A stretch of 64,000 nucleotides of DNA from Candidatus Levyibacteriota bacterium (GTDB taxonomy: Bacteria > Patescibacteriota > Microgenomatia > Levybacterales > UBA12049): contig JAUSEW010000002.1 of assembly GCA_030651475.1 (NCBI GenBank), positions 83,927-147,926 of the forward strand, written 5' to 3'. Both the position numbers and the translations under genes were made by a program. How positions within the stretch are numbered: position 1 is the stretch's first letter; every line of letters starts with the position of its first letter. This document shows positions 2,747 through 57,949 of this stretch, piece after piece. Under the pieces are notes generated by a model. The model was not told the origin of the DNA and did no database searches. It saw only the letters and a program-made list of their open reading frames with translations.

Positions 2747-3406
2747 CTATTTTTCTTCGTCTGGATCTATAAGCAAGCTATAAATCTCTGGATTATCGGT
2801 TTCGGTTTCCTCTTCCTCTACAAATGATTGGTAGCTTAAGTTGGGGATAGTTTTTGAGAAATAAGACAGGATAAATTCCGTATTGCAAAAAGGATGCTTA
2901 TCCTTAGATAAATAATAGCTGTATGAGGAATAAGGATAGAGATTAAGACTTTCTTTATGCAACTTCAAGGGATTACGATGAATATACTTTGACACTTGCA
3001 ATAAATATCCGTCATTTTCAATAAGCTTAGCCTTAAATGTACCTTGAAAGAGGGGCCCGATACGATCATACTTGGTATTGAAATATCTAGTATAGCTATT
3101 GGCAAATTTCCTTATGAAATTTGTTATTCCGCCATCTGCGTTTTGTTTTAGCAGAAAGTGAAAATGGTTAGGCATTAAGCAGTAGGAATAAATCTCTACC
3201 AATTCAATTTGGTTTTCGATCTTTTTAGCTTTTTCTATTCCTCTTTTAAAATCGGAAAGTTTTGCCGGCAGCGGAGCTTTGCGATAGAAATCCATAGTTA
3301 ATAAAAACTGTTGATAGTCACGTTTGCCAATAAAAATATTTCTCTTTTCTACTCCTCGGTTATAGATATGATAATAGTTGCCGTTAACAAAAGGAGGATT
3401 AGTCAT
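2747..3406 (-). CDS. REP-associated tyrosine transposase / IS200-like Y1 (HuH) transposase, copy 1
   Basis: It has YHIYNRG, the HuH motif CLMPNHFHFLL, and a downstream Tyr in YIHRNP. The paralog at 20151-20750 shares these blocks. The start is placed at the internal Met (MTNPPF...) because the annotated N-terminal 12 codons overlap a flanking hairpin. Confidence 0.7.
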   Translation of the reverse strand: MTNPPFVNGNYYHIYNRGVEKRNIFIGKRDYQQFLLTMDFYRKAPLPAKLSDFKRGIEKAKKIENQIELVEIYSYCLMPNHFHFLLKQNADGGITNFIRKFANSYTRYFNTKYDRIGPLFQGTFKAKLIENDGYLLQVSKYIHRNPLKLHKESLNLYPYSSYSYYLSKDKHPFCNTEFILSYFSKTIPNLSYQSFVEEEETETDNPEIYSLLIDPDEEK

Positions 3407-3425
3407 TATTAGATGATAAATATTC

Positions 3426-3449
3426 GTGCTCCCACTTGTCAAGTGGGAG
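3426..3449. repeat. GC-rich hairpin (ctcccact tgtca agtgggag) flanking the 5' end of RAYT copy 1, in inverted orientation to 2715-2737
   Basis: 8-bp stem hairpin. It shares an inverted 10-mer with the other flank. Confidence 0.7.
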
Positions 3450-7260: not shown

Positions 7261-7777
7261 CTTCCTTATTTGAGGGATCGCAAACTGCTTCTAGCGAATA
7301 AAATACGAATGTCCGAATTGATGGTTTTTGAAGCTAAAACGATACGTTTAGGCTGATTTATCAATCTAAATTATGGTATAGGCAGATGCCCTCGGGGAGG
7401 GAGGCGTTAAAACGAAATTAAAAATTAAAAATGAAAAATTAAAAGCTAAGACAGCGGAGGACATAGGCTCTTATAAGACGGGAAACGAAATAGTCCTCTT
7501 CTGTTAAGGATTGGTCGAAAAAGGTTTTTGACGGGAAAATAGCACTGGAAGTAGAGGAAGTGATTACGTCGTACAATAATACTTTTACGACGTCAGCCAG
7601 CTTCAGTTATTCGGAGAAGTGGCCTAAACCTTGCCGAAATTTTCAATTTTTAATTCTCAATTTTCAATTACGCTACTTACTTCTCTTAATTTTGCGGCTT
7701 ATTTTTCTCCCAAAAAATGCCTATTTAATCCCCCACTATAGGGCTACATAGAGAAAATTTCATGAAGCTATTCGAAG

Positions 7778-8266
7778 CTATTCTTTAATCTTTCTTGCTA
7801 GTTTCGCTAATTTTTTATCATCAGCTCTTTTATGATCATGGGACGAAATGTAGCCTTCGTATTTTTCAAAGAATTTATCAATGCCGGAGCGAAAAGGTTT
7901 CCATTTGCCCATTTTGGTGCCGTGCATGGGGAAAAGTTTGGCATGAACATGATCTACGCCAAAACCCTCAAGAATCATGCCGGTTCTGCCAACGTTTTCT
8001 AGCTTCTTGTCTAACAATTTTCCTACTTTTTTGGCAGCAACAGCCAGATCTCTGAAAACTTTTTCCGGCAGATCGAATGCGTAGCTTGGGTAATGCCTTT
8101 TGGTCGTTATAACGGAGAAGCCTTCTGTATTTGGGAAAATTGACAGAAAAGCAAAATGGCTGGCATCCTCCCAAATTTTGTGACTCGGAGATTTACCGCT
8201 GACAATATCGCAAAAAATACACCCTTTCACATTTTGAATATAGCAAAATTGCCAAACTCTGTCCAA
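7778..8266 (-). CDS. HIT (histidine triad) family hydrolase
   Basis: It has the N-terminal CIFCDIV...HFAFLSIFP HIT fold signature and a GVDHVHAKLFP histidine-triad-like motif. Confidence 0.75.
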   Translation of the reverse strand: MDRVWQFCYIQNVKGCIFCDIVSGKSPSHKIWEDASHFAFLSIFPNTEGFSVITTKRHYPSYAFDLPEKVFRDLAVAAKKVGKLLDKKLENVGRTGMILEGFGVDHVHAKLFPMHGTKMGKWKPFRSGIDKFFEKYEGYISSHDHKRADDKKLAKLARKIKE

Positions 8267-8311
8267 TTGACAATGTTATTTTCCGTATATGTATGATATT
8301 ATACGTGCTGT

Positions 8312-8971
8312 ATGGAAATTGGAACAAGCGAGGGAAAGCCATCTGGTCTCAATCGTGAAATTTCAGAAGGAGAAGCAAGAGAATTTATCCAATCATTACC
8401 TCCAGAAGGCATAATGTTACACGGTACATTTCGTAGGAACATTAAAGACATAAGAAAGAAGGGTTTACTGCTATCTCCACAGCTTAGAAGTGTATACGGC
8501 CTCTTCTTAAAAATTAACATAAACCCATCCTCCGATGAATATTCTCCAAATGACATAGAGAAAATTATGAAGGATTTAAAAACAGCAGTCTGGAATTGTA
8601 CAGGGTATGGAATGCGAGGTACGGGGCATGATAATAAAGATGATAATATGCCAGCTGTAGTGATAGCTAAACTACCTTCCGGGATCATTCCATTAAGGAT
8701 GAGCCATTCGGGACTTCCCGAAGGTAGATCTGATAAATTAATTCCAGCTGGAGATATATTAGCAATAGAGTCCCTTACTCTTCAAGAGTATCTGCAGATT
8801 CCCAAGGAAGAGAAATTTTGGCCAAAACCAGAATTAATAAATATTATGGTAAAGAAAATTATAAACAGCATAATCAACGAGAATAAAAATAATATAAAAC
8901 CAGCAGGAAATATTTTACAAAGGGTTATTGGGAAGCTTTCGAAACAACTTTCTTCTGCACATCTTCATTGA
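8312..8971 (+). CDS. hypothetical protein
   Basis: 219-aa ORF with no recognisable motif. Confidence 0.3.
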   Translation: MEIGTSEGKPSGLNREISEGEAREFIQSLPPEGIMLHGTFRRNIKDIRKKGLLLSPQLRSVYGLFLKININPSSDEYSPNDIEKIMKDLKTAVWNCTGYGMRGTGHDNKDDNMPAVVIAKLPSGIIPLRMSHSGLPEGRSDKLIPAGDILAIESLTLQEYLQIPKEEKFWPKPELINIMVKKIINSIINENKNNIKPAGNILQRVIGKLSKQLSSAHLH

Positions 8972-9024
8972 CAATTTTATTTCCGCGTCGCATAATATAA
9001 TAATCCACGTCGCAAAATAATTTT

Positions 9025-9957
9025 ATGACAACTTCTCTGCCCGCCTTGATTGACCAATTCTTGGAATACCTTGAGATAGAAAAGAATTGTTCGAAGCTGA
9101 CGATTCGAGATTACAGGCATTATTTAGAAGTTTTTGCAAATTGGCACTCTTCCACCCAAGGCGATAAATCCATAGGAAGCCTGGATTTGGCAACGGTTAG
9201 GAAGTATAGGGTTTACCTTGCCAATCGAGTTGATGCGAAAGGTTTGACTTTGAAAAGAGTTACCCAGAACTATTATGTTATCGCGCTTCGGTCATTCTTG
9301 AGATTTTTAATTAAGAACGATATCAAAACTCTTGAGCCTTCCAAAATTGATTTGCCCAAAACCGAAAGCAGAAGCCTTAAGTTTTTGGAAAAAGAGCAGG
9401 TCGATAGGCTTGTTACTGCCTGCGATACATCCAAAGAAGAAGGCATAAGAGACAGAACGATTCTGGAGCTTTTGTTTTCAACAGGACTTCGTGTTTCAGA
9501 GCTTGTAAAGTTAAATCGAGACCAAATAAATCTGGACAGACGCGAATTCGGGGTAATTGGCAAAGGAGGGCGGGCAAGAATAGTATTCGTGTCGGATCGG
9601 GCGGCGCAATGGATAACAAATTATCTGAAGAAACGGGAAGATGTGTTTAAGCCCTTATTTATCCGCTATTCGGGAAAAGTAATTGAAGACAATGGCGGAG
9701 AAAAAATGAGATTAACAGCCAGAAGTATCGAGCGGATTGTCAAAAAGTATGTTCGGGCAGTCCGGCTGCCGGTAGATGCGACTGTTCACACGCTTCGCCA
9801 CTCTTTTGCGACCGATCTCCTGACGAATGGCGCCGATATAAGATCGGTTCAGGAAATGCTCGGACATAAAAATATCGCCACAACCCAAATCTACACCCAC
9901 ATTACGAATAAACAGCTTCGCGAGGTCCACCAAGCCTTCCACAGTGGGAATAAGTAA
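9025..9957 (+). CDS. tyrosine site-specific recombinase, XerC/XerD family
   Basis: The C-terminal catalytic box HTLRHSFATDLLTNGADIRSVQEMLGHKNIATTQIYTHI is present, with the R...HxxR...Y residues. Confidence 0.85.
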   Translation: MTTSLPALIDQFLEYLEIEKNCSKLTIRDYRHYLEVFANWHSSTQGDKSIGSLDLATVRKYRVYLANRVDAKGLTLKRVTQNYYVIALRSFLRFLIKNDIKTLEPSKIDLPKTESRSLKFLEKEQVDRLVTACDTSKEEGIRDRTILELLFSTGLRVSELVKLNRDQINLDRREFGVIGKGGRARIVFVSDRAAQWITNYLKKREDVFKPLFIRYSGKVIEDNGGEKMRLTARSIERIVKKYVRAVRLPVDATVHTLRHSFATDLLTNGADIRSVQEMLGHKNIATTQIYTHITNKQLREVHQAFHSGNK

Positions 9958-10006
9958 AGCGCTATTGGTGATTAATGTTGGTTTTGTGATATAATCCTAC
10001 TTAAAT

Positions 10007-10201
10007 ATGACAGAGGCTGATTTTGCATCTACTACGGTAAAGCCGGAAAAAGCTGTTACACCAGAATTCGATAAATTGGTTAGAAGACTAACGCCACAGG
10101 CCGACAAAAATGTGGAGCGAGTAGATCAAATTGCTGTTGGACTAACAGTTGCTGCGAATCATTTGGCTGCTAAAGCGCAAAGAGTAGAACCTAAAAAATA
10201 G
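10007..10201 (+). CDS. small hypothetical protein
   Basis: 64-aa ORF between xerC/D and pyrB. No motif. Confidence 0.2.
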   Translation: MTEADFASTTVKPEKAVTPEFDKLVRRLTPQADKNVERVDQIAVGLTVAANHLAAKAQRVEPKK

Positions 10202-10209
10202 TCAATTCC

Positions 10210-11205
10210 TCACCCATTTGTTTTGCCCAAAACTAATGATATGATCGCCATTCGAACATACATTCCGTTTCTAATCTGATTCCTTAAGTATACTGCTCGA
10301 GGATCATCGTCAACCTCTTCTAATATTTCTCCAACTCGAGGAAGCGGATGCATCAAAATCATATCCTTATTTCCGTAATTCCCTAGGAGTTGCTTGTTTA
10401 CTACAAAACTATGTTTGAGTTTTTCGTACTCACTGGGATCTGCAAATCTTTCCTTTTGCGTTCTTGTCCAGTATCAAAAATTACAATCTCTTGGAATTTC
10501 TTCCACGTCTTCAATCTCAATTATTTTTAATCCTTTGCTTTTAAGTTTTTCCAGCAAATCTGTTTGCAGCTTAAGCTCTCTTGGAGAAAGAAGATAAACT
10601 GTACTGTTGGGATATAAAGACAAACCTTTAAGTAGTGAATGTACCGTTCTTCCATTTTTTATATCTCCGGCAAAGAGTCCTTTTAATCCCGAAAGTGTTC
10701 CTATCTTTTCATGGATTGTATAAAGATCTAGAAGCGCCTGGGTTGGATGTTCGTCTATTCCGTCTCCAGCATTTATAACTGGAACAAATTTTGCAATATC
10801 TGCCGCTTTTTGTGCGCTTCCTACTTCTGGGTGTCTTAGGATAATTGCATCTGAATATGCTTCGAAAACCCTAATTGTGTCTTTAAGTGTTTCCCCTTTT
10901 GAGACAGAGGAAAATTGTTGAGGATTCTCAACTACAATTGTTGATCCTCCTAATCGTTTGGTTGCCGCATCAAATGATCCCCTTGTTCTCGTTGACGGTT
11001 CATAGAAAAGAAGCGTAATGATATTTTCTCTAAGTAGGTCATTTGGCTTAGCATTTTTGACAACTTCTGCCATTGCCGTGGTTAGATGGAATAAATAAGA
11101 TATGGATGCAGGATTAAATTGGTCAATTGACAGGATATCTTTTCCCTTGAAGTCCCCGTTTATTTTTTCTGGACGGAAATCTGGTAAAACTAATCTCTCT
11201 GGCAT
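10210..11205 (-). CDS. pyrB: aspartate carbamoyltransferase catalytic subunit, interrupted by an in-frame TGA at 10474-10476 (pseudogene or readthrough/recoding candidate)
   Basis: The upstream part has the STRTR and HPTQAL motifs. Continuing the same frame past the TGA gives YWTRTQKERFADPSEYEKLKHSFVV...MILMHPLPRVGEILEEVD...RMAIISLVLG, which aligns to the conserved ATCase C-terminus (E. coli ...ILYMTRVQKERLDPSEY...VLHPLPRVDEI...). Total length 331 aa is normal for PyrB. Confidence 0.8.
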
Positions 11206-11232
11206 TTCTAAAGAAGTTTATATTGATTGTTT

Positions 11233-12162
11233 TTATTTGTCAATACTGTTTTTAGTAGCTCCTATGAGGTTTTTCAAAAGCATGGCGACGTTAATCGGGC
11301 CGATTCCCCCAGGGCTTGGAGTGTAAAAAGAGGCAATGTTTTCTATGTCTTTTTCCTCGTAGTCTCCGTGAAGTTTTCCATCGTTACCTTTATGTAGGCC
11401 AACACTTACAAGAATTACTCCTTTCTTAATCATCTTCGAATTTATGATATTTTCTTGCCCGACAGCGGAAATAATAATGTCGGCATTTTTGGTTAATAGC
11501 TCATGGTCTATAGTCTTGCTATCCACAATTAGGGGTTTAACCTCTAATTGTTGCAAAGCGTTAATTATTGGTTTTCCTCCTGTTTCTCCTTTGCCAATAA
11601 CGACTATTTTTTTGGATTTTAGCCAATCTTCAAAAGCTCGGCGGGGTCCTGCCGAAACTTTCCCTCCCGCCAGTGCTCCTGCGACTTCGTCTTCGATGCG
11701 CGCTGTCGGGAACCCTTCCAGTTTCGTCACCCCTCGCATATATATCTCCTGTAAAATTTTCATAGCTGCCAAGCTAATTGGTGATTGGAATTCGGATTTG
11801 GGATTAAATCCGTCGATATCTTTTTTAGGATTTACAGCCAAAGTTATTGCTTTTATATCAATATGGGAAGGAAGCGGTTGTTGGACAATAATTCCGTGAA
11901 TTTCGGGGTTTTTATTTAATATGCCAATCTTTTCCAATAACTCCGCGTTCTTAATTCCGGAATCTAAATTATATAAAGTTGTTTTAATTCCGACTGTTTC
12001 CCCTTTTAGTATTTTCTGTTTAACGTATGCTTTTGAAGCAGGATCTGTTCCAACAAGAATAATTGCCAAATGGGGGAAGATATTTCTTTTTTTAAGATTT
12101 TCTACTTTTTTCTGAAGTTCTTTTAGGATTTCTCCGGCGATTTCTCTTCCGTCAATCTTCAT
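11233..12162 (-). CDS. folD: bifunctional methylenetetrahydrofolate dehydrogenase/cyclohydrolase FolD carrying a ~35-aa in-frame insertion
   Basis: Conserved FolD blocks are present (KQKILKGETVGI, DIDGF, VVIGKGETGGKPI, PSPGGIGPINVAMLL). An extra segment YMRGVTKLEGFPTARIEDEVAGALAGGKVSAGPRRAFEDW is encoded by repeat copy B. Confidence 0.85.
   Translation of the reverse strand: MKIDGREIAGEILKELQKKVENLKKRNIFPHLAIILVGTDPASKAYVKQKILKGETVGIKTTLYNLDSGIKNAELLEKIGILNKNPEIHGIIVQQPLPSHIDIKAITLAVNPKKDIDGFNPKSEFQSPISLAAMKILQEIYMRGVTKLEGFPTARIEDEVAGALAGGKVSAGPRRAFEDWLKSKKIVVIGKGETGGKPIINALQQLEVKPLIVDSKTIDHELLTKNADIIISAVGQENIINSKMIKKGVILVSVGLHKGNDGKLHGDYEEKDIENIASFYTPSPGGIGPINVAMLLKNLIGATKNSIDK
11640..11735. 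repeat. structured ~95-nt palindromic repeat, copy B, inserted in-frame within folD
   Basis: Aligned to copy A (7167-7260). The GGGG...CCCC and CGAAAC/GTTTCG closing stems co-vary relative to copy A. Confidence 0.8.
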
Positions 12163-12163
12163 T

Positions 12164-12799
12164 TTATAGAATTTTATTTTCGATCAAATAATTTTTGACA
12201 ATTTCAAAAAACTGCTTATGTCCTTCGGAAGTCATATGTACTCCGTCTGCCAATAGTTTCGTATAATCTTTTTTGATAAATTCTTGATAAATCTCTATAA
12301 AATGAACTTTATTTTTATTGCTTACCTTTTTCATAATCTTGTTAAACTCGGCAACATATTTATCTTTATAAGATCTTCCAGGTGACCAAGGTATTGGATC
12401 AACTCGTGTGTCAACAGGCATGGAACCGATAACTATAATTTTTTTTGAATATTTTTTGGCAAGCAGTATTAATTGAGTAAGATTTGCTTCAAATTGCCTG
12501 GGGCTACGTTCTGGATTGCTGATTTTTTGATTAAAAATAGTGTCGTTTATTCCCGTCTGAAACAAAAATATTGTTTCTTCGTTGTTGTCAATTCTAGCCT
12601 TTGTTTCTTGTTCGAATCTTTTCAGTACCTCATCGGTTTTGTCGCCTGAAACACCAAGATTATAAACAAGGTGAGAATGGGCATAGTTAGAGGTGATTAT
12701 TTTTTCATCCAAAAATTTTCTAAGCCGCTGAACCCAACCGTCTTCAATATCCCAAGCGCCATAAGTTGTACTCGTCCCAAAGACTAAAATATGCGCCAT
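12164..12799 (-). CDS. SGNH/GDSL-family hydrolase (lipase/esterase-like)
   Basis: GDS-like block ILVFGTSTTYG near the N-terminus and the catalytic DGVH (DxxH) motif near the C-terminus. Confidence 0.7.
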   Translation of the reverse strand: MAHILVFGTSTTYGAWDIEDGWVQRLRKFLDEKIITSNYAHSHLVYNLGVSGDKTDEVLKRFEQETKARIDNNEETIFLFQTGINDTIFNQKISNPERSPRQFEANLTQLILLAKKYSKKIIVIGSMPVDTRVDPIPWSPGRSYKDKYVAEFNKIMKKVSNKNKVHFIEIYQEFIKKDYTKLLADGVHMTSEGHKQFFEIVKNYLIENKIL

Positions 12800-12804
12800 A
12801 ATAT

Positions 12805-15261
12805 TTAGATTTCAATACAGGTTGCAGATGCGACTCGATCGGCTGAATTTGAAAACCTCATCAGGATTACGCCTTGAGTATTCCTGGATAATCTTGGCAT
12901 TGACGTAATTCCCAATTTCACAACCTGTCCTTTATGCGATGTAATTATAACTTCTTCGCAATTTGAAGGAATGACTTGCGCAAATGCAACTTTGCCGGTT
13001 TTGGCTGTTACCTTCGCTACTTTTACTCCTTGTCCTCCCCTGCCTTGTCCTCTGAATAGCGATGTGGCTGTTTTCTTACCAAGGCCATTTTCCATAATTG
13101 TCAGAAGATCGCGTTTTTCAGTTGCGGCAATAATATCCATACCGATAACCTTATCGGCTTCCCCAATTCTTATTCCTCTGACTCCCATTGTGTTTCTTCC
13201 CATTGATCTGACGGATTTTTCCGAGAATCTGATAGCTTTTCCGTTTAAGGTTGCCAAAAGCACATCGTCACTGCCGCTGGTAAGCTTACTCCAGGCAAGT
13301 TCATCGCCTTTCTCTAAATTTATCGCAATAATTCCGCTTTTTCTGATATTGTCAAATTCGGATAATTTGGTTTTTTTGACAGTGCCTTTTCTGGTGGTTA
13401 AAAATACATATTTTTCTTCCTGGCCTTTTCCGTAATTAATAAGCGATTCTACTATTTCTCCCTGCTCGATACTTAAAAGATTGACTATTGCAGTTCCCTT
13501 GCTAATTCTGCTTCCTTCTTGGATTTCAAAAACTCTTAGTTTGTAGCATTTTCCTTTGTTGGTAAAGAAAAGTAAATTGTCATGGGTTTGAGCAGATTGG
13601 ATAAGATATATCTCATCGCCTTCTTTGGTAGTCATTCCTTTTATGCCTTTTCCTCCCCGATGCTGGATCTTAAAACTGGTAAGGCTTTGGCGCTTGACGT
13701 ATCCGGTGTTGGTAAGAGTTATGACGGTTGGTTCATTAGGGATAAGGTCCTCGTCGGAAAACTCACCAACTTTACTTTTAAATACTTTTGTTCTGCGTTC
13801 ATCGTGATATTTTTCCTTGATGTTCAGAACTTCATCTTTTATAACAGTTAGGATTTTTATGGGGTGCATAAGCAGATCTTCAAGGTAAGCGATAGTTTCC
13901 TTAACCATTGCGTATTCGTCTTCAATTTTCTGTCTTTCCAAAGCCGCAAGACGGCGAAGCTGCAAATCCAAAATCGCAACTGCCTGGATTTCGGAAAGCT
14001 TGAATTTGCTAATCAAATTATTTTTGGCGTCTTCTTGGGTCTTGGAAGATTTTATAGTTTTTATTACGGCGTCAATATTATCAACTGCAATTCTAAGGCC
14101 CTCTAGGATATGAAGCCTTGCTTTGGCAGCTCTTAGCTCGAACTCGGAGCGTTTGGTGATGATTGAGTATCTATGTTTTAAATATTCCTCAAGAATAATT
14201 TTAAGGTTTAGGATTTGAGGTGTTCCGTCAATAAGACCGACTAAATTTGCAGGGAAAATTGTCTGAAGAGCAGTATGTTTGAATAAATTGTTCAATACTT
14301 TTCTTGGCGTCGTATCTCTTTTTAATTCAACCACCACTCTTATTCCGTGTCTGTCCGACTCATCCCGTAAGTCTGAAATTCCTTCTATTTTTTTGTCTTT
14401 CGCCAGTTCAGCAATGCGGGCAACCAAAAGAGCCTTATTTACTTGATATGGAAGTTCCGTAATAATGATTGCAGATTTGCCGTTTCCGATATCTTCTATA
14501 TCTGCTTTTCCCCGAATTATTATTCTTCCCCGTCCCTGGGTGTAGACGTTTTTTATTTCAGCTATATCGTATATCGCTCCATATGTTGGGAAATCAGGGC
14601 CTTTGATAAATTCCAAAAGTTCATCTACTGTGGTGCTGGAGCTTAATTTTCCATCCGTTACTTTGGTTTTGCCAATCGTAAATACAATTGCGTCAATGAC
14701 TTCGGACAAATTATGAGGAGGAATTTTTGTTGCCATACCAACGGCAATTCCTTCGGATCCCATCAGCAAAAGATTTGGAAGTTTCGCGGGAAGAAATACC
14801 GGTTCTTTTAAAGTTGAGTCGAAATTCTCTATAAGACTTACCGTTTCTTTGTCAATATCAAAAAGCATCTCAGATGTTATAAGGGCAAGCCTTGCTTCGG
14901 TATACCTCATTGCAGCCGGAGGATCTCCGTCCATTGACCCGAAATTTCCCTGCCCGTCAATTAAGGGATAGCGCATAGAAAAACCTTGAGCAAGTCTGAC
15001 TAAAGCATCGTAAATCGGAAGATCTCCGTGGGGATGATATTTACCCATTACTTCTCCGACGATTTTGGCGCTTTTTGAATATCTTGCGCTATGCGTTAAG
15101 CCCATTTCATGCATAGCAAAGAGTATGCGTCTATGAACGGGTTTTAATCCGTCTCGAACATCGGGGAGCGCTCGGGATACTATAACAGACATGGCATAAT
15201 CCAAATACGCCCGTTTCATTTCAACTGTTATTTCTGTCTGTTTAAGTTGTCCAATATTCAT
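12805..15261 (-). CDS. gyrA: DNA gyrase subunit A
   Basis: 818 aa with [10 protein letters not shown] around the active-site Tyr, the QRD region and C-terminal beta-pinwheel repeats. Confidence 0.95.
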
Positions 15262-15278: not shown

Positions 15279-17312
15279 CTATATCAGAAAGGGAGCAATC
15301 AAAAGCGCTACGATATTTAATACCTTAATCATAGGATTGATTGCGGGACCGGCAGTATCTTTATATGGATCTCCGACAGTATCTCCTGTAACTGCTGCCT
15401 GGTGAGCGAAACTTCCTTTTCCTCCCAAATTTCCCTCTTCAATATATTTTTTGGTATTATCCCAGGCAGCGCCCCCGGTGGTCATAGAAATTGCCACGAA
15501 CAGTCCCGTAACAATGCTGCCAACCAAAAGTCCTCCGAGCGCTTTTGGACCAAGCAGAAATCCTACCAGAATCGGAGCAAGAACCGGAATTAGCGCGGGA
15601 ACAATCATCTGCTTTATAGCAGCTGTTGTTACTATGTCAACAGCTTTTCCGTATTGCGGTTTGGCTTTTCCTGTCATTATGCCTTTTATTTCCTTGAACT
15701 GTCGTCTTACTTCATTTACCACTGAAACAGCGGTTTTACCAACTGCCTCCATTGCCAAAGCGCCGAAGAGATATGGAAGTGCGCCTCCGATGAAAAGACC
15801 AACTACGACACTTGGATCGGAAAGAGAAAAGAAAGCTGCAGAAACGCCCTTAGCACCTCTGGCTAATTCTTGAGTATAGCTTGCGAAAAGAACCAAAGCC
15901 GCAAGTCCGGCAGATCCTATGGCATAAGCTTTGGTAATGGCTTTCGTAGTATTTCCGACCGCATCTAAAGGATCCGTAACTCGTCTTACTTTTTCATCAA
16001 GTCCTGCCATTTCCGCAATTCCTCCGGCATTATCTGTTATCGGACCGAATGCATCTATCGCTACGATAATTCCCGTTAAGGAAAGCATGCTCATTGCAGA
16101 AAGAGCTATTCCGTAAAGTCCGGCGAGATTATAGGAGACTAAAATTCCGGCAGCAATTAAAAGAATCGGAGCAAAAGTAGATTTCATAGAAACTGCCAGA
16201 CCGGCAATAACATTGGTGCCGTGTCCGGTAGTTGAGGCGTTCGCAATAGCTTTAACAGGCCCAAACTTTTTGGAGGTAAAATATTCGGTAATGATAACCA
16301 TGCCAACAGTAATTGCTATGCCAATTGCCAAAGTATAAAAAAGGTTAATTGTCGAAATCCCGTTTAATCCGTTGGGAAATGCGGAATTTGTCAGAAAATA
16401 AAAACCGACAAGCGCTACGATTATAGAAACACCAAGTCCTTGATATAAAGCACCCATTATGTTTTTTCCAACCCTCACAAACCAGCTGCCGATAATACTT
16501 GCGGCAACGGATATGGAGCCGATAAGCAAAGGATAAAATAGAACTGTCAGGTTTTCTCCGAAGGTTAATTTGCCTAAAATCATTGCGGCAACAACGGTTA
16601 CAACGTATGTTTCAAAAAGATCAGCTGCCATTCCCGCATCATCTCCGACATTATCCCCTACCAAATCCGCGATTACCCCCGGATTTCTCGGATCATCTTC
16701 AGGAATTCCCTTTTCAATTTTCCCAACCATATCTGTTCCGACATCAGCGCCTTTGGTAAATATTCCTCCGCCAAGCCTGGCGAAAACAGAAATTAAGCTC
16801 CCTCCGAAGCCTAAAGCAACTAACGGCTGAAGGCTTGATGTTCCGCTTCTGGAAAGCAAGAAATAAAAACCTCCGACTGCCAAAAGAGCCAGACCGCCAA
16901 CCATCAGTCCGGTTATTGATCCTCCCTGAAAAGCCAAAGAAAAAGCAGAAGATAAGCCTTTTTTAGCGGCTTGAGCTGTTCTGATATTGCTTCTTACGGC
17001 AATATTCATTCCCACAACTCCGGCTATGGTGGAAAAAACAGCTCCGATAGCAAAACCAACTGCGGTTATAGGATTGAAAACAAAATAAAGAACGGCAAAA
17101 ATAAAAATTCCGATAACTGCAACAACACTATATTGCTTTTTCATATAGGCAGCTGCTCCTTCTTGGATAGCATCGGCAATGTCATTCATTTTTTTGTCAC
17201 CTCGAGGTTTAGATAAAACATTAAAAGCAAGAAGAACGCTGTAGGCAACCGAGATAAAACCTGCTACAAAAGTAGTCCAAAGGGCGTGGTTTACCAAAAG
17301 AGATAAATTCAT
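15279..17312 (-). CDS. hppA: membrane-bound proton/sodium-translocating pyrophosphatase
   Basis: [17 protein letters not shown] and DNVGDNVGD motifs, 677 aa, many TM helices. Confidence 0.9.
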
Positions 17313-20150: not shown

Positions 20151-20750
20151 ATGGCAACTCCAGTAAGATATTTCCAAAAGGGTTCCTATTACCATGTATA
20201 TAATAGAGGCAATAGGAAGCAGAATATTTTTCTTTTTCCTCCTGACTATGAGCGTTTCCTAAAAAGGGTAAGGGAATACAAGGAAAAATTTAGGATAACC
20301 ATCTTAGGTTATTGCCTTATGCCAAACCATTTTCATTTCCTATTGAGACAAGATTCTGACGTGCCGTTAACATCTTTTATGTTAAGGTTAGGGACAAGCT
20401 ATGCGAAATATTTTAATATAAAATATAGACAAGTCGGTAGTCTTTTTCAGGATCGTTTTAAGACAAAGCTCGTTGAGAATGACGAATACTTATTGCAGCT
20501 ATCTCGATATATCCATCGTAACCCCAAGGAAATTTTGCCCTCGACCCCTGGGGTTGAACTCGCCAGTTATCAATGGTCAAGCTATCCTTCGTATTTAAAG
20601 TTAGCAAATGATGAATTGACGGAATCAGCATTTATTCTTAATTATTTTTCCAAAGCAAATCCAGCTAAAGACTATAAAAAGTTTGTGGAATATGATTCTA
20701 ACGAAAAAGAGCAGTCATTGACAAGCGATTTAATCTTAGAAGATTCCTAG
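20151..20750 (+). CDS. REP-associated tyrosine transposase / IS200-like Y1 (HuH) transposase, copy 2
   Basis: YYHVYNRG, CLMPNHFHFLL (HuH) and YIHRNP Tyr motif. About 45% identical to copy 1. Confidence 0.7.
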   Translation: MATPVRYFQKGSYYHVYNRGNRKQNIFLFPPDYERFLKRVREYKEKFRITILGYCLMPNHFHFLLRQDSDVPLTSFMLRLGTSYAKYFNIKYRQVGSLFQDRFKTKLVENDEYLLQLSRYIHRNPKEILPSTPGVELASYQWSSYPSYLKLANDELTESAFILNYFSKANPAKDYKKFVEYDSNEKEQSLTSDLILEDS

Positions 20751-21601: not shown

Positions 21602-23341
21602 ATGGAAGTAATGCCCAACGATGATTCTAAGTTTGTCACAGAGAATAAAACGCTTTTAGATGTTTTGCTTTCGGAACGTCTTATAACCCCGTCGCAATAC
21701 GAAGAAATAAAGGTAAAAAGCGCCAGTCAAGGATTATCTTTAGAGTCGGTGCTTGCGTCTTTAAATATAGTACCGGAAGAAAAAATAACAGAGGCCAAAG
21801 CGAAGCTTTTGGGTATTCCTTTTGTGACTTTGGAGGGAACATCATTTTCCCCTCAAGCTTTGGGCTTAATGCCAAGAGCCGTAGTTGAGCGCTTTTTTCT
21901 TGTGCCATTTTCTTACGACGAAAAAACGAAGACCCTTTCCATTGCGATGAGTAACCCGGTCGATTTGGAAGCAATTTCGTTCGTGCGCCAAAAAACAGGG
22001 CTTAATATAAAAGTTTTTGCGGCATCTTCAAAAGACGTAGAAAAAGCGATAAACGAGCAATATCGTCAGGAGCTGGTTGGAGAAGTTGGGGAAGCTTTAA
22101 AAGAAACGGAAAGTCTGCATAAAACTCAAACCATTGACAGCAAAAAAATAGCAGAAATTATCAAAGAAGCTCCGATTGCCAAAATCGTCTCGACAGTTTT
22201 GGAATATGCAGTTACCAGCCGCGCTTCCGATGTTCACATCGAACCTCAAGAAGATAGGGTTAGGGTTAGGTATAGAATCGATGGAATTCTTTATGACAGA
22301 TTGAGTCTTCCCAAAAATGTTCAGGAGGCAGTTGTGTCGCGGATTAAAATTTTGTCCGATATGAAAATAGACGAGCATCGTACTCCTCAAGACGGAAGGT
22401 TTAATTTCAAAGTTGCAGACAAAGAAGTAGATCTGCGTATTTCTGTTCTGCCAACAACCTTTGGAGAAAAAATCGTCATGAGGCTTCTTCGGAAATCCGG
22501 CGGAATACCTACTCTTCAAGAATTAGGCTTAATGGGAAGTTCTTTGAAGAATTTGGAAACTGCGATACTGCGGCCGCACGGAATTATTATTGTCTGCGGT
22601 CCAACCGGAAGCGGAAAAACAACCACTCTTTATTCTGTTTTGTCCAAGCTCAACACCACCAGAGTTAACATAGTGACACTTGAAGATCCCGTTGAATACC
22701 AAATGCCCGGAATTAACCAGGTGCAAATAAATCCGGGGGTAGGGCTTACTTTCGCAACCGGACTTAGAGCGTTTCTTCGCCAAGATCCCAATATTATACT
22801 GGTTGGAGAAATACGAGACTCGGAAACAACAGAACTGGCTATTCAGGCCGCGCTAACAGGACATTTAGTATTTTCAACTTTGCATACTTCAAACGCCAGC
22901 GGTGCTTTGCCTAGACTGATAGATTTAGGCGCCGAAAGGTTTTTGCTTTCCTCTACTCTGAACGCGGTTTTGGCGCAAAGAATAGTTAGGAAAATTTGCA
23001 CCAATTGCAAAGAAGAATATATTCCCCTGCCCCAAATAATTCAGGAAATTAAGAATGGGTTGGGCAATCTTTTTCCGGCAACAGGAGAAACTGTTAAGCT
23101 ATACAAAGGTAAGGGTTGTGATGAATGCGGAGGTTCGGGATACTTGGGAAGGATTGGTATTTTCGAAACGCTTCCTGTCTCGGAGAAAATGTCAACGCTT
23201 ATTTTGCAAAATGCCGATAGCAATTCCATAGAAAAAGAAGCGATTTCGGAGGGTATGATTGTTCTAAAACAAGATGGGTATCTCAAAGCTCTTCAGGGGA
23301 TAACCACAGTTGAAGAAGTGCTAAGGGTGGCGCAGGAATAG
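21602..23341 (+). CDS. pilB: type IV pilus assembly ATPase PilB (GspE family)
   Basis: N-terminal T2SSE_N domain, Walker A CGPTGSGKTTT, a His box, and the tetracysteine CTNC...CDEC motif. Confidence 0.9.
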   Translation: MEVMPNDDSKFVTENKTLLDVLLSERLITPSQYEEIKVKSASQGLSLESVLASLNIVPEEKITEAKAKLLGIPFVTLEGTSFSPQALGLMPRAVVERFFLVPFSYDEKTKTLSIAMSNPVDLEAISFVRQKTGLNIKVFAASSKDVEKAINEQYRQELVGEVGEALKETESLHKTQTIDSKKIAEIIKEAPIAKIVSTVLEYAVTSRASDVHIEPQEDRVRVRYRIDGILYDRLSLPKNVQEAVVSRIKILSDMKIDEHRTPQDGRFNFKVADKEVDLRISVLPTTFGEKIVMRLLRKSGGIPTLQELGLMGSSLKNLETAILRPHGIIIVCGPTGSGKTTTLYSVLSKLNTTRVNIVTLEDPVEYQMPGINQVQINPGVGLTFATGLRAFLRQDPNIILVGEIRDSETTELAIQAALTGHLVFSTLHTSNASGALPRLIDLGAERFLLSSTLNAVLAQRIVRKICTNCKEEYIPLPQIIQEIKNGLGNLFPATGETVKLYKGKGCDECGGSGYLGRIGIFETLPVSEKMSTLILQNADSNSIEKEAISEGMIVLKQDGYLKALQGITTVEEVLRVAQE

Positions 23342-23342
23342 T

Positions 23343-24410
23343 ATGGAAATACAAGAATTATTAAATTTAACAATTCAAAATAAAGCATCGGATCTGCATT
23401 TGCTGGCAGGTATTGTTCCGACAATACGTGTTGACGGCTCATTGGTATTCTTGCCGAATTACCCGGCAGTAACCAAAGAAGATGCGGAGCGAATGATATT
23501 TTCCATACTTACGCCATCCCAAAAAGAACTTTTGCTGGCGAATAAGGAATTGGACTTTTCCTTTGGATTCGGCGGAGGGACTTATGGCAATTTAGGCAGA
23601 TTTAGGGTTAATTTGTATTTTCAAAGAGGAATTCTTAGCGGGGCATTTCGTTTTCTGGAACCAAACATCAAGACAATTGATGATCTTCATTTGCCAAAAA
23701 TCGCTCACAATTTTGCTGCACTCAAGCAAGGATTTATTCTGGTTACAGGTCCGACAGGTCAGGGGAAATCAACAACTTTGGCGGCAATTATCAACGAAAT
23801 AAATGCCAATAAAGCAAACCATATTCTGACGATAGAAGATCCGATAGAATATATCTATCCAAGCGGAAAAAGCATTATTTCCCAACGTGAGATGGGTTCC
23901 GATACCCACTCCTGGGGAATGGCTCTAAAATCCGCGTTAAGAGAAGATCCGGATGTGGTTTTGGTCGGAGAAATGAGAGATCCCGAAACTATCTCATCCG
24001 CGATTACGGTGGCGGAAACAGGACACTTGGTGTTTTCAACTTTGCATACAAATTCTGCTTCCCAAACAATAGACAGAATTATTGATTCTTTTCCTTCCAG
24101 TCAGCAAACTCAAATAAAAATTCAGCTGGCATCAACCCTTAAAGGCATTATCTCCCAGCGTTTAGTCCCCATGATAAATGGCGGAAGAGTGCCTGCGGTT
24201 GAAATACTGATCGGTACTCCTGCGGTTGCCAACAATATCAGGGAAGGAAAAACACATTTGATTGATTCGATAATACAAACGTCTTCGGATGAAGGAATGA
24301 TTACTTTGGAGTCTTCGCTGGCTTCTCTAGTTCTGGCAGGCAGCATCAGCCTTGAGACCGCAAAGGAATATGCTCTGCATCAAGACGATCTTTTGCGTCT
24401 TGTTGGTTAA
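23343..24410 (+). CDS. pilT: type IV pilus retraction ATPase PilT
   Basis: GPTGQGKSTT Walker A, HLVFSTLHT motif, ~355 aa. Confidence 0.9.
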   Translation: MEIQELLNLTIQNKASDLHLLAGIVPTIRVDGSLVFLPNYPAVTKEDAERMIFSILTPSQKELLLANKELDFSFGFGGGTYGNLGRFRVNLYFQRGILSGAFRFLEPNIKTIDDLHLPKIAHNFAALKQGFILVTGPTGQGKSTTLAAIINEINANKANHILTIEDPIEYIYPSGKSIISQREMGSDTHSWGMALKSALREDPDVVLVGEMRDPETISSAITVAETGHLVFSTLHTNSASQTIDRIIDSFPSSQQTQIKIQLASTLKGIISQRLVPMINGGRVPAVEILIGTPAVANNIREGKTHLIDSIIQTSSDEGMITLESSLASLVLAGSISLETAKEYALHQDDLLRLVG

Positions 24411-24413
24411 CTT

Positions 24414-25622
24414 ATGAGATTATTGTATCAAGCTGTAACTAGAGAAGGGAAAAAAGTCAGAGGAGTAATTAATGCCAACGATACTAATGAGGCGACAGCC
24501 TATCTTCGCAGCAAGAATTTCATCCCGATAAGCATTTCCAAGGAAAGCAAAAGTAAATTTTTAGACGCTCTTCCCATGTTTTCCCAAAAAATTACCGCTT
24601 CGGATTTAGTGATTTTTACCAGACAATTATCTTCAATGCTGACAGCAGGGCTTACTCTGATTAAATCTTTGGAAATTCTTAAGGAGCAGTTGGAGAAAGA
24701 GGCGATGATAGAAATTGTCGATAATATAATTACCGATATAGAGGAAGGGTCAACTTTTTCCTCTGCAATTGCCAAATATCCGCAGGTTTTTTCATCGATA
24801 TACGTTTCTCTTATAAAAGCGTCCGAAACATCCGGACTTTTGGATAGATCCCTTTTGAGGCTTGCCGATAATTTGGAAAAACAGCAAAAATTAAAAGGGA
24901 CCATCAGATCCGCTCTGATGTACCCAATTATAGTTATAATTTTGATGGTTGTGGTAGTTGCGATTATGATGGTTTTTGTTATTCCCCAGCTGTCTGTCTT
25001 GTATAATGATCTGAATATTCCTTTGCCTTTGCCTACGCAAATAATCGTGAGTCTTTCCAACTTCGTTATAATTTTCTGGCCTGTTATATTGGCAGCAATA
25101 GTATTGAGCGTATTTTTTTACAAGCGTTGGCACAAAACAGAAAACGGACAGCTGATTATTGATAATTTGCTTCTCAAACTTCCGGTTTTTGGTGTTCTTA
25201 TCAGGAAAACAATTCTTGTGGAATTTTCAAGAACTTTGGGGTTAATGATAGGAACAGGAAGCTTGGTTGTGGAGTCTTTGATAAAAACATCAGACATAAG
25301 CGGAAATATTCATTATAAAAATGCGATTTTGGATGTTGCCAGGAGAGTGGAAAAAGGAGTAACTGTCGGAGATGCAATGGCAGCTTATACTTTATTCCCG
25401 CCGGTTCTTGTTCAGCTGGTGAAAATCGGGGAACAGACAGGAAAGCTTGATGAAACTCTGATTAGAGCGTCTGAATATTTTGAAGGGGAAGTAAATGAGA
25501 CTGTTAAAGCCTTAACAACCGCGCTTGAGCCATTCATTATGGTAGTTTTGGGAATCGGCGTTGCCTTTTTAATTATTTCCGTCATAACACCAATTTACAG
25601 CTTAACCTCGTCTATTCAATGA
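24414..25622 (+). CDS. pilC: type IV pilus platform protein PilC (GspF family)
   Basis: 402 aa with two GspF repeats and three TM segments. Confidence 0.9.
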   Translation: MRLLYQAVTREGKKVRGVINANDTNEATAYLRSKNFIPISISKESKSKFLDALPMFSQKITASDLVIFTRQLSSMLTAGLTLIKSLEILKEQLEKEAMIEIVDNIITDIEEGSTFSSAIAKYPQVFSSIYVSLIKASETSGLLDRSLLRLADNLEKQQKLKGTIRSALMYPIIVIILMVVVVAIMMVFVIPQLSVLYNDLNIPLPLPTQIIVSLSNFVIIFWPVILAAIVLSVFFYKRWHKTENGQLIIDNLLLKLPVFGVLIRKTILVEFSRTLGLMIGTGSLVVESLIKTSDISGNIHYKNAILDVARRVEKGVTVGDAMAAYTLFPPVLVQLVKIGEQTGKLDETLIRASEYFEGEVNETVKALTTALEPFIMVVLGIGVAFLIISVITPIYSLTSSIQ

Positions 25623-25689
25623 TTGCTATTCTACTTTGCCCCCTTGACAAGGAAAATATAATGTGTTCTACTAAATATATAGGCAAATA

Positions 25690-26286
25690 ATGAAAAGAAT
25701 TTATAACAAGCTTTTTTCTTTCGGTTCTAAGGGTTTTACTCTAATTGAGCTACTTGTGGTTATAGGTATCCTAGGCATTCTTGCTTCAGCTCTTATCGCT
25801 ACCATTGACCCCTTCGAACAGCTCAAGAAAGCAACAGATGCAAAAATAAAAAATATTACCGTAGAGTTCCAGACAGCGTTGGTAAGGTATTACACAACAC
25901 ATGGTAAATTCCCTTGGAATGATCAAGCTAGCATAGATAACAATACTAATCCGGCTTGTACGGCGCTTAGTTCAGCTGTGATATCAGGTCAAAAACTTAA
26001 CGTTGCAGCAGTAAAATCATGTATTGATAATGCAGGTGGTGCAAGCTTGATTGCAGAGGGAGAGCTAAAAAGTTCATTCACGTCTAGCGTAGATGATCTT
26101 GGCCAAGTGTATCTCACTTGGGATCCGGCCAATGCCACAAATGCAGTTATTTGCTTCAGTCCAACATCAAAATCTCAAAAAGGCGCTCCGGATACGAAAT
26201 GGACAGATGCACAGGGAGCCACAACCGGAGCAACTTGTCCAAGTTCAACAGCAGCAGACAATGTATGTTTCTGGTGCACACAGTAA
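25690..26286 (+). CDS. type IV (major) pilin, PilA-like
   Basis: Class III signal peptide KGFTLIELLVVIGILGILAS with Glu+5, and C-terminal Cys pairs. Confidence 0.8.
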   Translation: MKRIYNKLFSFGSKGFTLIELLVVIGILGILASALIATIDPFEQLKKATDAKIKNITVEFQTALVRYYTTHGKFPWNDQASIDNNTNPACTALSSAVISGQKLNVAAVKSCIDNAGGASLIAEGELKSSFTSSVDDLGQVYLTWDPANATNAVICFSPTSKSQKGAPDTKWTDAQGATTGATCPSSTAADNVCFWCTQ

Positions 26287-26347
26287 ACTTCATATATCCT
26301 CTTAAATAAATAATTTGCTATACTAAATTAAACTTTGATTTTATTGG

Positions 26348-27136
26348 ATGAATAGCTTATTCGCTTTTTATATTTTTGTCATCGGTTTATTTATCGGGTC
26401 GTTTTTAAATGTCTTAATCGATAGGATTCCCAAAAGAAATTTATTCCGAAAGAAAAGGTCGTATTGCGACTCGTGCAAGAAAACTCTCAAATGGTATGAT
26501 TTAATTCCTGTTTTTTCATTTATTTTTTTGCAAGGAAAATGCCGTTATTGCCGCTTCCCTATTTCACTTTATTACCCTATCGTTGAGTTGATTACGGCGT
26601 CTTTATTTGTACTGACGTTTAATTTTATTTCTTCAGGCGGAATAATGAATCAAGAATTAAGAATCATGGACGCAATAGGACTAGTATATTACCTATTTAT
26701 AATTTCTTCTTTCATCGTTGTTTTTTTTACAGACTTAAAATATGGAATTATTCCGGATAAAGTTTTATTGGCCGCAATTTCGCTTTCTATTTTTTACTTA
26801 TTCTTTATTCACAATTCATTATTCATGATTCATCTTTTGTCTGGCGTTGGAGCGTTTTTATTATTCTTACTGTTGCACTTAATTACCAGAGGTAAAGGGA
26901 TGGGATTTGGAGATGTAAAGCTTGTTTTCTTGATTGGTCTTTTTTTGGGCATTCTTAATGCAATTCTAGCTTTATACTTAGCATTCTTGACAGGGGCTGT
27001 GGTTGGGCTCATACTAATTTTATGGGGAAAAAGAAAGTTTTTTGGGGGGAAAATTCCCTTCGGTCCGTTTTTGGTTTTGGGAACATTTATAAGTTTATTT
27101 TTGGGAGAAAAAATAATCAAGGTTTTACTCTGGTAG
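26348..27136 (+). CDS. pilD: prepilin peptidase / N-methyltransferase PilD (A24 family)
   Basis: N-terminal CDSC...CRYC zinc-binding tetracysteine and a GMGFGDVKL catalytic-Asp region. Polytopic. Confidence 0.85.
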   Translation: MNSLFAFYIFVIGLFIGSFLNVLIDRIPKRNLFRKKRSYCDSCKKTLKWYDLIPVFSFIFLQGKCRYCRFPISLYYPIVELITASLFVLTFNFISSGGIMNQELRIMDAIGLVYYLFIISSFIVVFFTDLKYGIIPDKVLLAAISLSIFYLFFIHNSLFMIHLLSGVGAFLLFLLLHLITRGKGMGFGDVKLVFLIGLFLGILNAILALYLAFLTGAVVGLILILWGKRKFFGGKIPFGPFLVLGTFISLFLGEKIIKVLLW

Positions 27137-30430: not shown

Positions 30431-30477
30431 GGTACGTTTTGTTGACAACTGGATTTAACAGCTGTTATTCTTAAAAT

Positions 30478-31263: not shown

Positions 31264-31274
31264 TAGAATAAATT

Positions 31275-32856: not shown

Positions 32857-32859
32857 ATT

Positions 32860-57917: not shown

Positions 57918-57949
57918 GAATTTCAGTATAGCATGTCTGAAGAAAGGAT

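What the first reader, a model, noticed from the sequence alone, without database searches (positions are those of the whole stretch)
10210..11205. pyrB interrupted by a single in-frame TGA with conserved, in-frame sequence on both sides
Translation stops at TGA (10474-10476) after residue 243. The same frame continues for 88 more codons that align to the ATCase C-terminus (YMTRVQKERL...HPLPRV...ARQALL in E. coli) and end at a second TGA. The internal TGA sits where other ATCases have a hydrophobic residue (Leu/Val). TGA is a genuine stop elsewhere in the window, for example at rluA. So this is a very recent nonsense mutation (incipient pseudogene, plausible in a genome with little other pyrimidine biosynthesis in view), a sequencing error, or programmed stop-codon readthrough.
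Basis: seen in the sequence. Interest (0 to 1): 0.6.

Follow-up and report, generated by a model that had tools for sequence, protein, structure and literature searches.

The report
Fresh Trp-to-stop mutation in pyrB
The aspartate carbamoyltransferase gene (pyrB) of this uncultured Levybacteria genome carries one base change that turns a conserved tryptophan codon (TGG) into a TGA stop, which is an ordinary, very recent gene-breaking mutation and not a special decoding signal.

Summary
pyrB lies on the minus strand (ATG at 11205). It has an in-frame TGA at 10474-10476 after codon 243. Another 87 conserved in-frame codons follow, up to the natural stop at 10210-10212.

The stop replaces a tryptophan, not Leu/Val. 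All 26 closest relatives have W at this column, and the two nearest have TGG with identical flanking codons. The change is therefore one G>A transition (C>T at + strand 10474).

An independent Logan assembly of run SRR13727527 is 100% identical over 6,567 bp and includes the TGA, so an assembler artefact is unlikely. Read-level polymorphism could not be checked.

The organism uses the standard code:
- 15 of 60 ORFs end in TGA, four of them as ATGA stop/start overlaps.
- 58 other ORFs contain 159 TGG codons and no in-frame TGA.

Nothing points to programmed recoding. There is no SECIS-like or stimulatory structure, no Rfam hit, a +4 U context, and no other TGA at this codon in relatives.

The downstream part shows no decay (dN/dS 0.16; one lineage-specific change in 86 codons), so the mutation is recent. 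The 243-residue product lacks the equivalents of E. coli R229, Q231 and L267 and should be inactive. Basal UGA misreading by tRNA-Trp would restore the ancestral protein at a low level.

Verdict: ordinary, low interest.

The parts
10477..11205 (-). pyrB codons 1-243. Holds the carbamoyl-phosphate-binding domain and the first third of the aspartate-binding domain. NCBI annotates this stretch alone as a 243-aa protein (MDO8620775.1).
   Evidence: ORF list. Pfam OTCace_N 3.5e-46 plus OTCace profile positions 2-60. The exact 243-aa product is in NCBI and Logan. The equivalents of E. coli S52, R54, T55, S80, K84, R105, H134, Q137 and R167 are all present.
10474..10476 (-). Premature in-frame TGA at codon 244, derived from the clade-invariant Trp codon TGG by one G>A transition (+ strand C>T at 10474). 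It is followed by U (UGAU).
   Evidence: Sequence and translation. W in 26 of 26 relatives. TGG with identical flanking codons in L002 and L003. The TGA form of the motif occurs only in the window and its identical Logan contig, while the TGG form occurs in 13 relatives' loci. There are 0 TGA hits in JGI metagenome contigs.
10213..10473 (-). pyrB codons 245-331. Same frame, intact, and not translated unless the TGA is read through. Carries the aspartate-binding residues R248 and Q250 (E. coli R229, Q231), the HPLPR loop and the C-terminal helix.
   Evidence: Pfam OTCace profile positions 86-156, E 3.2e-15. 29 clade-invariant residues are kept. dN/dS against P0001 is 0.16. One lineage-specific change in 86 codons. 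Residue mapping to E. coli.
10210..10212 (-). Natural pyrB stop codon (TGA), at the same place where close relatives end.
   Evidence: Translation. The alignment shows relatives ending within a few residues of LVLGK.
11233..12162 (-). folD, directly upstream, co-oriented, with a 27-nt gap. The folD-pyrB pairing is conserved in relatives, so pyrB is probably co-transcribed with it.
   Evidence: Pfam THF_DHG_CYH and THF_DHG_CYH_C. The same order is seen in L084 and L085.

Best explanation
A single recent point mutation (TGG>TGA, Trp244>stop) is present in the sequenced population of a Candidatus Levybacteria bacterium that uses the standard genetic code.

Release factor 2 should terminate at this UGA (inferred). 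That would give a 243-residue fragment lacking the aspartate-binding residues (equivalents of E. coli R229 and Q231), the HPLP loop and the C-terminal helix that packs back onto the carbamoyl-phosphate domain. The fragment should therefore have no ATCase activity (inferred from established ATCase structure-function).

The gene is an incipient pseudogene or a strain-level loss-of-function allele. The mutation is so recent that no second lesion has accumulated.

The only route to active enzyme is basal near-cognate decoding of UGA by Trp-tRNA-Trp. That would re-insert exactly the ancestral tryptophan, but probably in only a small fraction of translation events. The level is unmeasured.
For: - Real at the stated coordinates.
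- One gene, split in two by the stop, and a bona fide ATCase: best solved relatives are ATCases at 5e-83 to 2e-75, against OTCases at about 1e-31.
- The ancestral codon is TGG: W in 26 of 26 relatives, and TGG with identical neighbouring codons in the two nearest.
- The other 119 listed homologs are all full length, 317-373 aa.
- The W-restored protein is absent from a 15-billion-protein collection.
- An independent assembly is 100% identical over 6,567 bp.
- Standard code: stops are TAA 31, TGA 15, TAG 14. There are 159 TGG and 0 in-frame TGA in 58 other ORFs. Four ATGA stop/start overlaps occur. No other gene is interrupted.
- Recent: the downstream part has dN/dS 0.16 against 0.28 upstream. 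Lineage-specific changes number 1 of 86 downstream and 9 of 243 upstream.
- Six of the 11 lineage-specific changes in this gene, including the stop, are G>A on the coding strand. This fits ordinary AT-biased mutation.
- The truncation removes R248, Q250 and L288, the equivalents of E. coli R229, Q231 and L267.
- UGA readthrough in E. coli is set by competition between the Trp-tRNA-Trp ternary complex and RF2 (PMC10570021).
Against: - No reads were available. The base could be a strain polymorphism or, less probably, a shared read-level error, because both assemblies may derive from the same run.
- The complete absence of downstream decay fits 'very recent', but it fits equally well a gene that is still being translated through the stop.
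- Close relatives keep pyrB under purifying selection, so loss is not obviously neutral.
- Whether the rest of the pyrimidine pathway or a salvage route exists in this genome is unknown. Only 64 kb was visible.
Confidence: 0.62

Rival explanations
1. Artefact or minor allele. The organism's real or dominant sequence has TGG. The T at + strand 10474 is a consensus or sequencing error, or a low-frequency strain variant that the assemblers happened to keep.
For: - Single-base difference from the ancestral codon.
- The gene is otherwise perfectly intact and conserved.
- The MAG comes from a metagenome in which strain mixtures are usual.
- Both assemblies may use the same reads.
Against: - Two different assembly pipelines (the NCBI MAG and Logan) agree base for base over 6.5 kb.
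- A substitution error surviving in a consensus is rare for short-read data (general knowledge).
- No TGG version of this protein exists in the protein collection.
Confidence: 0.2
2. Tolerated leaky stop. The mutation is real, but UGA at this site is read as Trp often enough to supply sufficient full-length wild-type ATCase, so the gene remains functional and selected. [quoted passage not shown]
For: - The stop sits exactly on a Trp codon, the one amino acid that near-cognate decoding of UGA inserts.
- The downstream part shows purifying-selection-like values.
- 4-bp anticodon-stem tRNA-Trp(CCA) gives UGA readthrough in E. coli and occurs in 34 of 142 phyla. A UGA>Trp reassignment exists in Patescibacteriota family JAKLIH01 (PMC13092985).
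Against: - TGG>TGA is one of only two single-step nonsense routes from Trp, so the coincidence is expected.
- The +4 base is U, which reduces readthrough, whereas +4C is the leaky context (PMC5289835).
- There is no stimulatory structure (z = -0.47).
- No relative carries TGA here.
- TGA is a working stop in 15 ORFs of the window, so high global readthrough would be costly.
- JAKLIH01 belongs to a different class, Minisyncoccia.
- The low dN/dS mostly reflects history before the mutation.
Confidence: 0.13
3. Programmed recoding of another kind: selenocysteine insertion, genome-wide UGA reassignment (code 4 or code 25), a prfB-like frameshift at UUU UGA, or a naturally split two-polypeptide ATCase.
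For: - UGA is the codon used for Sec and for the known Patescibacteria reassignments.
- The local sequence U UUU UGA U is slippery in principle.
Against: - Homologs have W or L at this position, never C or U.
- There is no SECIS-like hairpin and no Rfam hit.
- No in-frame TGA occurs in 58 other ORFs, and there are ATGA overlaps.
- The conserved C-terminus is in the zero frame, so a frameshift would lose it.
- The first in-frame ATG/GTG/TTG after the stop is at codon 282. It gives only a 50-residue peptide without R248 and Q250.
Confidence: 0.03

Closest known systems
Aspartate carbamoyltransferase catalytic chain (PyrB; Pfam PF02729 + PF00185), Microgenomates/Levybacteria clade with the FWYWTR(V/T)QKERF motif
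   Same: - 84% identical to the nearest intact homolog (P0001) and 60-73% to over a hundred others.
- All catalytic residues are conserved.
- folD-pyrB synteny is shared. So is the downstream xerC, yebC, lytR-C, rluA neighbourhood.
   Different: It is the only member seen with a stop at the invariant Trp. As written, the reading frame yields 243 residues instead of about 331.
Unitary pseudogenes created by a single nonsense mutation (Trp TGG>TGA/TAG transitions) in AT-biased, reduced bacterial genomes
   Same: - A single G>A transition at a Trp codon.
- Orthologs are intact.
- An AT-biased substitution pattern in the same gene.
   Different: - No secondary lesions and no relaxed constraint are visible yet.
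- It cannot yet be told apart from a transient strain-level allele.
Natural UGA leakiness / near-cognate suppression by tRNA-Trp (E. coli, PMC10570021), and 4-bp anticodon-stem tRNA-Trp readthrough (PMC13092985)
   Same: The codon is UGA and the ancestral residue is Trp, so any readthrough would restore the wild-type protein.
   Different: - The context is UGA-U rather than the leaky UGA-C.
- The stop is not conserved in relatives.
- The tRNA-Trp of this genome is outside the window.
- No measurement of readthrough exists.
UGA>Trp (code 4) and UGA>Gly (code 25) reassignments in Patescibacteriota (JAKLIH01; Gracilibacteria/Absconditabacteria-type class JAEDAM01)
   Same: Same phylum-level radiation and the same codon.
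   Different: - Here TGA terminates 15 of 60 ORFs and never occurs in frame in the other genes.
- The reassigned lineages belong to other classes.

Membership tests
ATCase catalytic chain (PyrB) | N-terminal carbamoyl-phosphate-binding domain (PF02729) with the STRTR motif | tested here: met
   OTCace_N E 3.5e-46 covering profile positions 1-148. S71, T72, R73 and T74 align to E. coli S52-T55.
ATCase catalytic chain (PyrB) | C-terminal Asp/Orn-binding domain (PF00185) with HPxQ, R167, R229/Q231 and HPLP | tested here: met
   The domain is present but split by the TGA: profile positions 2-60 lie upstream and 86-156 downstream. The H153, Q156, R186, R248, Q250 and L288 equivalents are all present.
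ATCase catalytic chain (PyrB) | Closer to ATCases than to ornithine carbamoyltransferases | tested here: met
   Solved ATCases score 5e-83 to 1e-62. The best OTCase scores 7e-31.
ATCase catalytic chain (PyrB) | Uninterrupted reading frame giving a roughly 310-360-residue chain | tested here: not met
   In-frame TGA after codon 243. All 119 other listed homologs are 317-373 aa.
Recent unitary pseudogene (nonsense) | Disabling mutation absent from orthologs and derived by a single step | tested here: met
   TGG in L002 and L003 against TGA here, with identical flanks. W in 26 of 26 relatives. TGA form found 0 times and TGG form 13 times in fetched relatives. 0 TGA hits in JGI contigs.
Recent unitary pseudogene (nonsense) | Relaxed constraint or further lesions downstream of the stop | tested here: not met
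   dN/dS is 0.16 downstream and 0.28 upstream. One of 86 lineage-specific changes downstream. If this is a pseudogene, it is therefore very young.
Recent unitary pseudogene (nonsense) | Mutation fixed in the population (not a minor allele or an error) | not testable with these tools
   Only consensus assemblies are available. Two assemblies agree, but reads cannot be inspected.
Programmed stop-codon readthrough | Stop codon conserved in orthologs with a conserved downstream extension | tested here: not met
   No ortholog has a stop at this codon.
Programmed stop-codon readthrough | Leaky context or a stimulatory downstream RNA structure | tested here: not met
   The +4 base is U; +4U lowers readthrough (PMC5289835). 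The 91-nt downstream fold has z = -0.47. No Rfam match.
UGA>Trp genetic code (table 4) | In-frame TGA at Trp positions across many genes, and TGA not used as a terminator | tested here: not met
   0 in-frame TGA against 159 TGG in 58 ORFs. 15 of 60 ORFs end in TGA. Four ATGA overlaps.
UGA>Trp genetic code (table 4) | tRNA-Trp(UCA) or a 4-bp-stem tRNA-Trp(CCA), and loss of RF2 | not testable with these tools
   The window holds only tRNA-Val, Leu, Gly and Phe. No prfB was found among the annotated ORFs. The rest of the genome is not available.
Selenocysteine recoding | SECIS hairpin just 3' of the UGA, and Cys/Sec at the homologous position | tested here: not met
   No significant structure and no Rfam hit. 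Homologs have W, L or V.

The most novel reading that the evidence does not exclude
The TGA is real and fixed, yet the gene is still functional. Levybacteria ribosomes or tRNA-Trp would misread UGA as Trp at an appreciable rate, making this a natural snapshot of the 'ambiguous intermediate' stage on the way to UGA>Trp reassignment. Such a reassignment has already happened in another Patescibacteriota lineage (JAKLIH01).
Probability: 0.06. Interest if true: 0.55.

Novelty: new member of a known kind. Interest (0 to 1): 0.15.

Why it matters
Mostly as an annotation and quality-control point. The NCBI record lists the 243-residue fragment as 'aspartate carbamoyltransferase' (MDO8620775.1). A metabolic reconstruction of this MAG would therefore wrongly credit it with ATCase activity.

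Biologically it is one example of ongoing gene loss, or strain-level loss-of-function variation, in a reduced CPR genome. The lost step is in de novo pyrimidine synthesis, which sister lineages still maintain. That would imply dependence on salvaged pyrimidines.

It would become interesting only if the stop proved to be efficiently read as Trp.

Tried and rejected
- **Code 4 or code 25 reassignment.** Rejected from stop usage, ATGA overlaps and the absence of other in-frame TGAs.
- **Selenocysteine or a structured readthrough signal.** Rejected: the fold z-score is -0.47, Rfam gives nothing, and homologs have W or L.
- **prfB-like +1 or -1 slippage at U UUU UGA.** Rejected because the conserved C-terminus is in the zero frame.
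- **Split gene with re-initiation.** Rejected. The first in-frame start after the stop is codon 282, and the 47-50-aa product lacks R248 and Q250.
- **Exact 35-nt search of JGI metagenome contigs for the same species with either TGG or TGA.** No hit.
- **Degenerate search of JGI metagenome contigs for a TGA version of the motif.** No hit. The pattern was validated locally.
- **Genome-contig scan.** It returned only relatives of 63% identity or less, not the source genome, so the rest of the genome could not be inspected.
- **Paper searches.** SRR13727527, Levybacteria with nucleotide biosynthesis, and ATCase complementing fragments all returned nothing. The one hit for CPR, pyrimidine and ATCase mentioned the terms only in its methods.
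- **ATCase fragment complementation.** I recall from memory that ATCase fragments can complement in vivo (Schachman laboratory, 1990s). I could not verify this here, and it would not apply without a start codon next to the break.

Full report
**1. Observation**

The feature is on the minus strand. An ORF starts at ATG 11205 and runs 243 codons to a TGA, which reads 'tca' on the + strand at 10474-10476. The same frame then continues for 87 sense codons to a second TGA at 10210-10212.

Pfam puts the carbamoyl-phosphate-binding domain OTCace_N (E 3.5e-46) and the first 60 positions of the Asp/Orn-binding domain OTCace in the upstream piece. Positions 86-156 of the 157-position OTCace profile fall in the downstream piece (E 3.2e-15). 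The joined sequence matches solved aspartate carbamoyltransferases at 5e-83 to 1e-62, and ornithine carbamoyltransferases only at about 1e-31.

I scanned all six frames for single stops flanked by at least 70 open codons on both sides. This is the only such case that lies in a real gene. The other cases are gene junctions or antisense frames.

**2. What the stop replaced**

A search of 5.8 billion protein clusters found the exact 243-residue product (P0003). It is annotated 'MAG: aspartate carbamoyltransferase [Candidatus Levybacteria bacterium]', accession MDO8620775.1, on a 158-kb contig. The other 119 listed hits are all full length, 317-373 aa, and the nearest is 84% identical.

In an alignment with 26 of them, the column under the stop is Trp in every sequence, in the motif CNF-W-YWTR(V/T)QKERF. 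I fetched the DNA of the two nearest relatives (L002, L003). Both read GAT TGT AAT TTT TGG TAC TGG ACA AGA, where the window reads GAT TGT AAT TTT TGA TAC TGG ACA AGA. The lesion is therefore a single G>A transition at the third codon position, which is C>T at + strand 10474.

Among 61 motif-bearing loci from GTDB genomes the codon encodes 50 Leu, 2 Val and 9 Trp. It aligns with E. coli L225 (the E. coli sequence was recalled from memory and checked by the canonical numbering of 13 residues).

**3. Is it in the organism or in the assembly?**

A Logan contig assembled independently from run SRR13727527 (L001, 6,975 bp) is 100% identical to window 7639-14205 over 6,567 bp and includes the TGA. 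The Trp-restored 331-residue protein is not present anywhere in a 15-billion-protein collection.

This argues against an assembler artefact. It cannot exclude a strain polymorphism or an error shared by the same reads, and I could not inspect reads.

**4. Genetic code and recoding signals**

The window has 38% G+C. Sixty non-overlapping ORFs of at least 100 aa end in TAA 31, TGA 15 and TAG 14. Four TGA stops are ATGA stop/start overlaps with the next gene. The 58 other ORFs contain 159 TGG codons and no in-frame TGA. The organism therefore uses the standard code, and TGA terminates.

- The 91 nt from the stop onward fold no better than shuffles (z = -0.47).
- Rfam finds nothing in 9900-11400, even at E ≤ 1.
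- The base after the stop is U. +4U reduces readthrough, whereas +4C is the leaky UGA context (PMC5289835).
- No relative has a stop here. A degenerate search of 241 million JGI metagenome records for the TGA form of the motif found nothing.
- The local U UUU UGA is slippery in principle, but the conserved C-terminus is in the zero frame, so frameshifting cannot rescue it.
- The first in-frame start after the stop is codon 282. It gives only a 47-50-residue peptide.

**5. Age of the lesion**

Against the nearest relative, dN/dS is 0.28 for the 243 upstream codons and 0.16 for the 86 downstream codons.

I also counted changes specific to the window's lineage, meaning sites where P0001 agrees with the majority of 25 outgroups. 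There are 9 of 243 upstream and 1 of 86 downstream, and that one is in the variable tail. All 29 clade-invariant residues after the stop are kept. So there is no sign of decay. Either the mutation is very recent relative to the divergence from P0001 (dS about 0.3-0.4), or the downstream part is still translated.

Six of the 11 lineage-specific changes in the gene, including the stop, are G>A on the coding strand. This is the expected signature of AT-biased mutation.

**6. Consequence**

Mapping to E. coli ATCase shows that the equivalents of S52, R54, T55, S80, K84, R105, H134, Q137 and R167 lie upstream of the stop. R229, Q231 and L267 (window R248, Q250, L288) lie downstream.

From established ATCase structure-function (my knowledge), R229 and Q231 bind aspartate. 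The C-terminal helix returns to complete the carbamoyl-phosphate domain. The 243-residue fragment should therefore be inactive. This step is inferred, not shown.

UGA readthrough in E. coli is set by competition between the Trp-tRNA-Trp ternary complex and RF2 (PMC10570021). Rare readthrough events would then regenerate exactly the ancestral protein. The level in this organism is unknown.

**7. Context**

The window is a typical Microgenomates/Levybacteria chromosome segment. It carries gyrB, gyrA, folD, a type IV pilus cluster, several aminoacyl-tRNA synthetases, purH, a PBP and trigger factor. No other pyrimidine-biosynthesis gene is in the 64 kb.

A 65%-identical relative on long contigs has gyrB - PPase - gyrA - folD - pyrB - carA - x - carB. 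Nearer relatives (P0002, P0008) share the window's arrangement: pyrB followed by xerC, and in the longer P0008 contig further on by yebC, a LytR_C protein and rluA, without carAB. Both still have an intact pyrB.

Absence of carAB next to pyrB therefore predates the stop and did not remove selection on pyrB. The 'little pyrimidine biosynthesis in view' argument cannot be evaluated further without the whole genome.

**8. Comparison with known systems**

[quoted passage not shown] That makes a 'tolerated leaky stop' conceivable. However, the window's own evidence speaks against it: TGA is a working terminator, the stop is unique, and the context is UGA-U. The tRNA-Trp gene is not in the window.

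**9. Verdict**

It is best explained as an ordinary, very recent TGG>TGA nonsense mutation (confidence 0.62). The alternatives are:
- a read-level artefact or minor allele (0.20);
- a tolerated leaky stop that keeps the gene functional (0.13);
- other recoding (0.03).

Interest is low. The practical value is that the deposited 243-residue 'aspartate carbamoyltransferase' should be treated as a probable pseudogene fragment.

Noticed in passing
window 15279-17312 (-); compare L084 4350-4880: A 677-aa membrane H+-translocating pyrophosphatase (PF03030, 855 bits) sits between gyrB and gyrA. A Levybacteria-type relative has a 176-aa soluble inorganic pyrophosphatase (PF00719) in exactly that slot. 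This looks like a non-orthologous replacement at a conserved locus.
   Followed up: partly
window 10007-10201 (+); L002 1333-1524 (-): A 64-aa ORF with no Pfam match lies convergent to pyrB, ending 8 nt from pyrB's stop. It is conserved at 52% identity (tblastn E 5e-14) in the same position in the nearest relative. It is probably a real small protein of unknown function between pyrB and xerC.
   Followed up: partly
window 2747-3442 (-) and 20151-20750 (+): Two IS200-like Y1 transposase (PF01797) ORFs, with no adjacent tnpB-like ORF noted. A similar gene also lies near xerC in relative L086. They may be domesticated or REP-associated tyrosine transposases.
   Followed up: no
window 50965-58061 (-): A probable defence island. 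It holds a ResIII helicase-type restriction subunit (50965-53013), an AAA_15/AAA_21 ATPase (53066-54796) and an N6/N4 DNA methylase (54793-56799), joined by ATGA overlaps. A Bro-N domain protein follows (57096-58061).
   Followed up: no
window 21602-33570 (+): A long type IV pilus / T2SS-like cluster: two T2SSE ATPases, T2SSF, a prepilin peptidase, at least six N_methyl pseudopilin-like ORFs (several ending in overlapping TGA stops) and PilM.
   Followed up: no
window 10477-11205 (-), codons 60 and 151: Two window-specific substitutions sit at positions where all 25 other clade members (all but P0001 in the 27-sequence alignment) have Gly: G60E (GGA>GAA) and G151D (GGC>GAC). Both are G>A changes like the nonsense mutation. 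E. coli has H and N at these positions, so they are probably tolerable. They could also hint at slightly relaxed constraint on this lineage's pyrB.
   Followed up: partly
L002 300-1322 (protein P0001): The nearest intact homolog carries a locally aberrant stretch (QQSSSVSRREILEDAISRVRVFEAY, with a 3-residue insertion) where all other relatives are conserved. It also has 21 lineage-specific changes. This may reflect assembly errors in that short Logan contig or compensating frameshifts.
   Followed up: no
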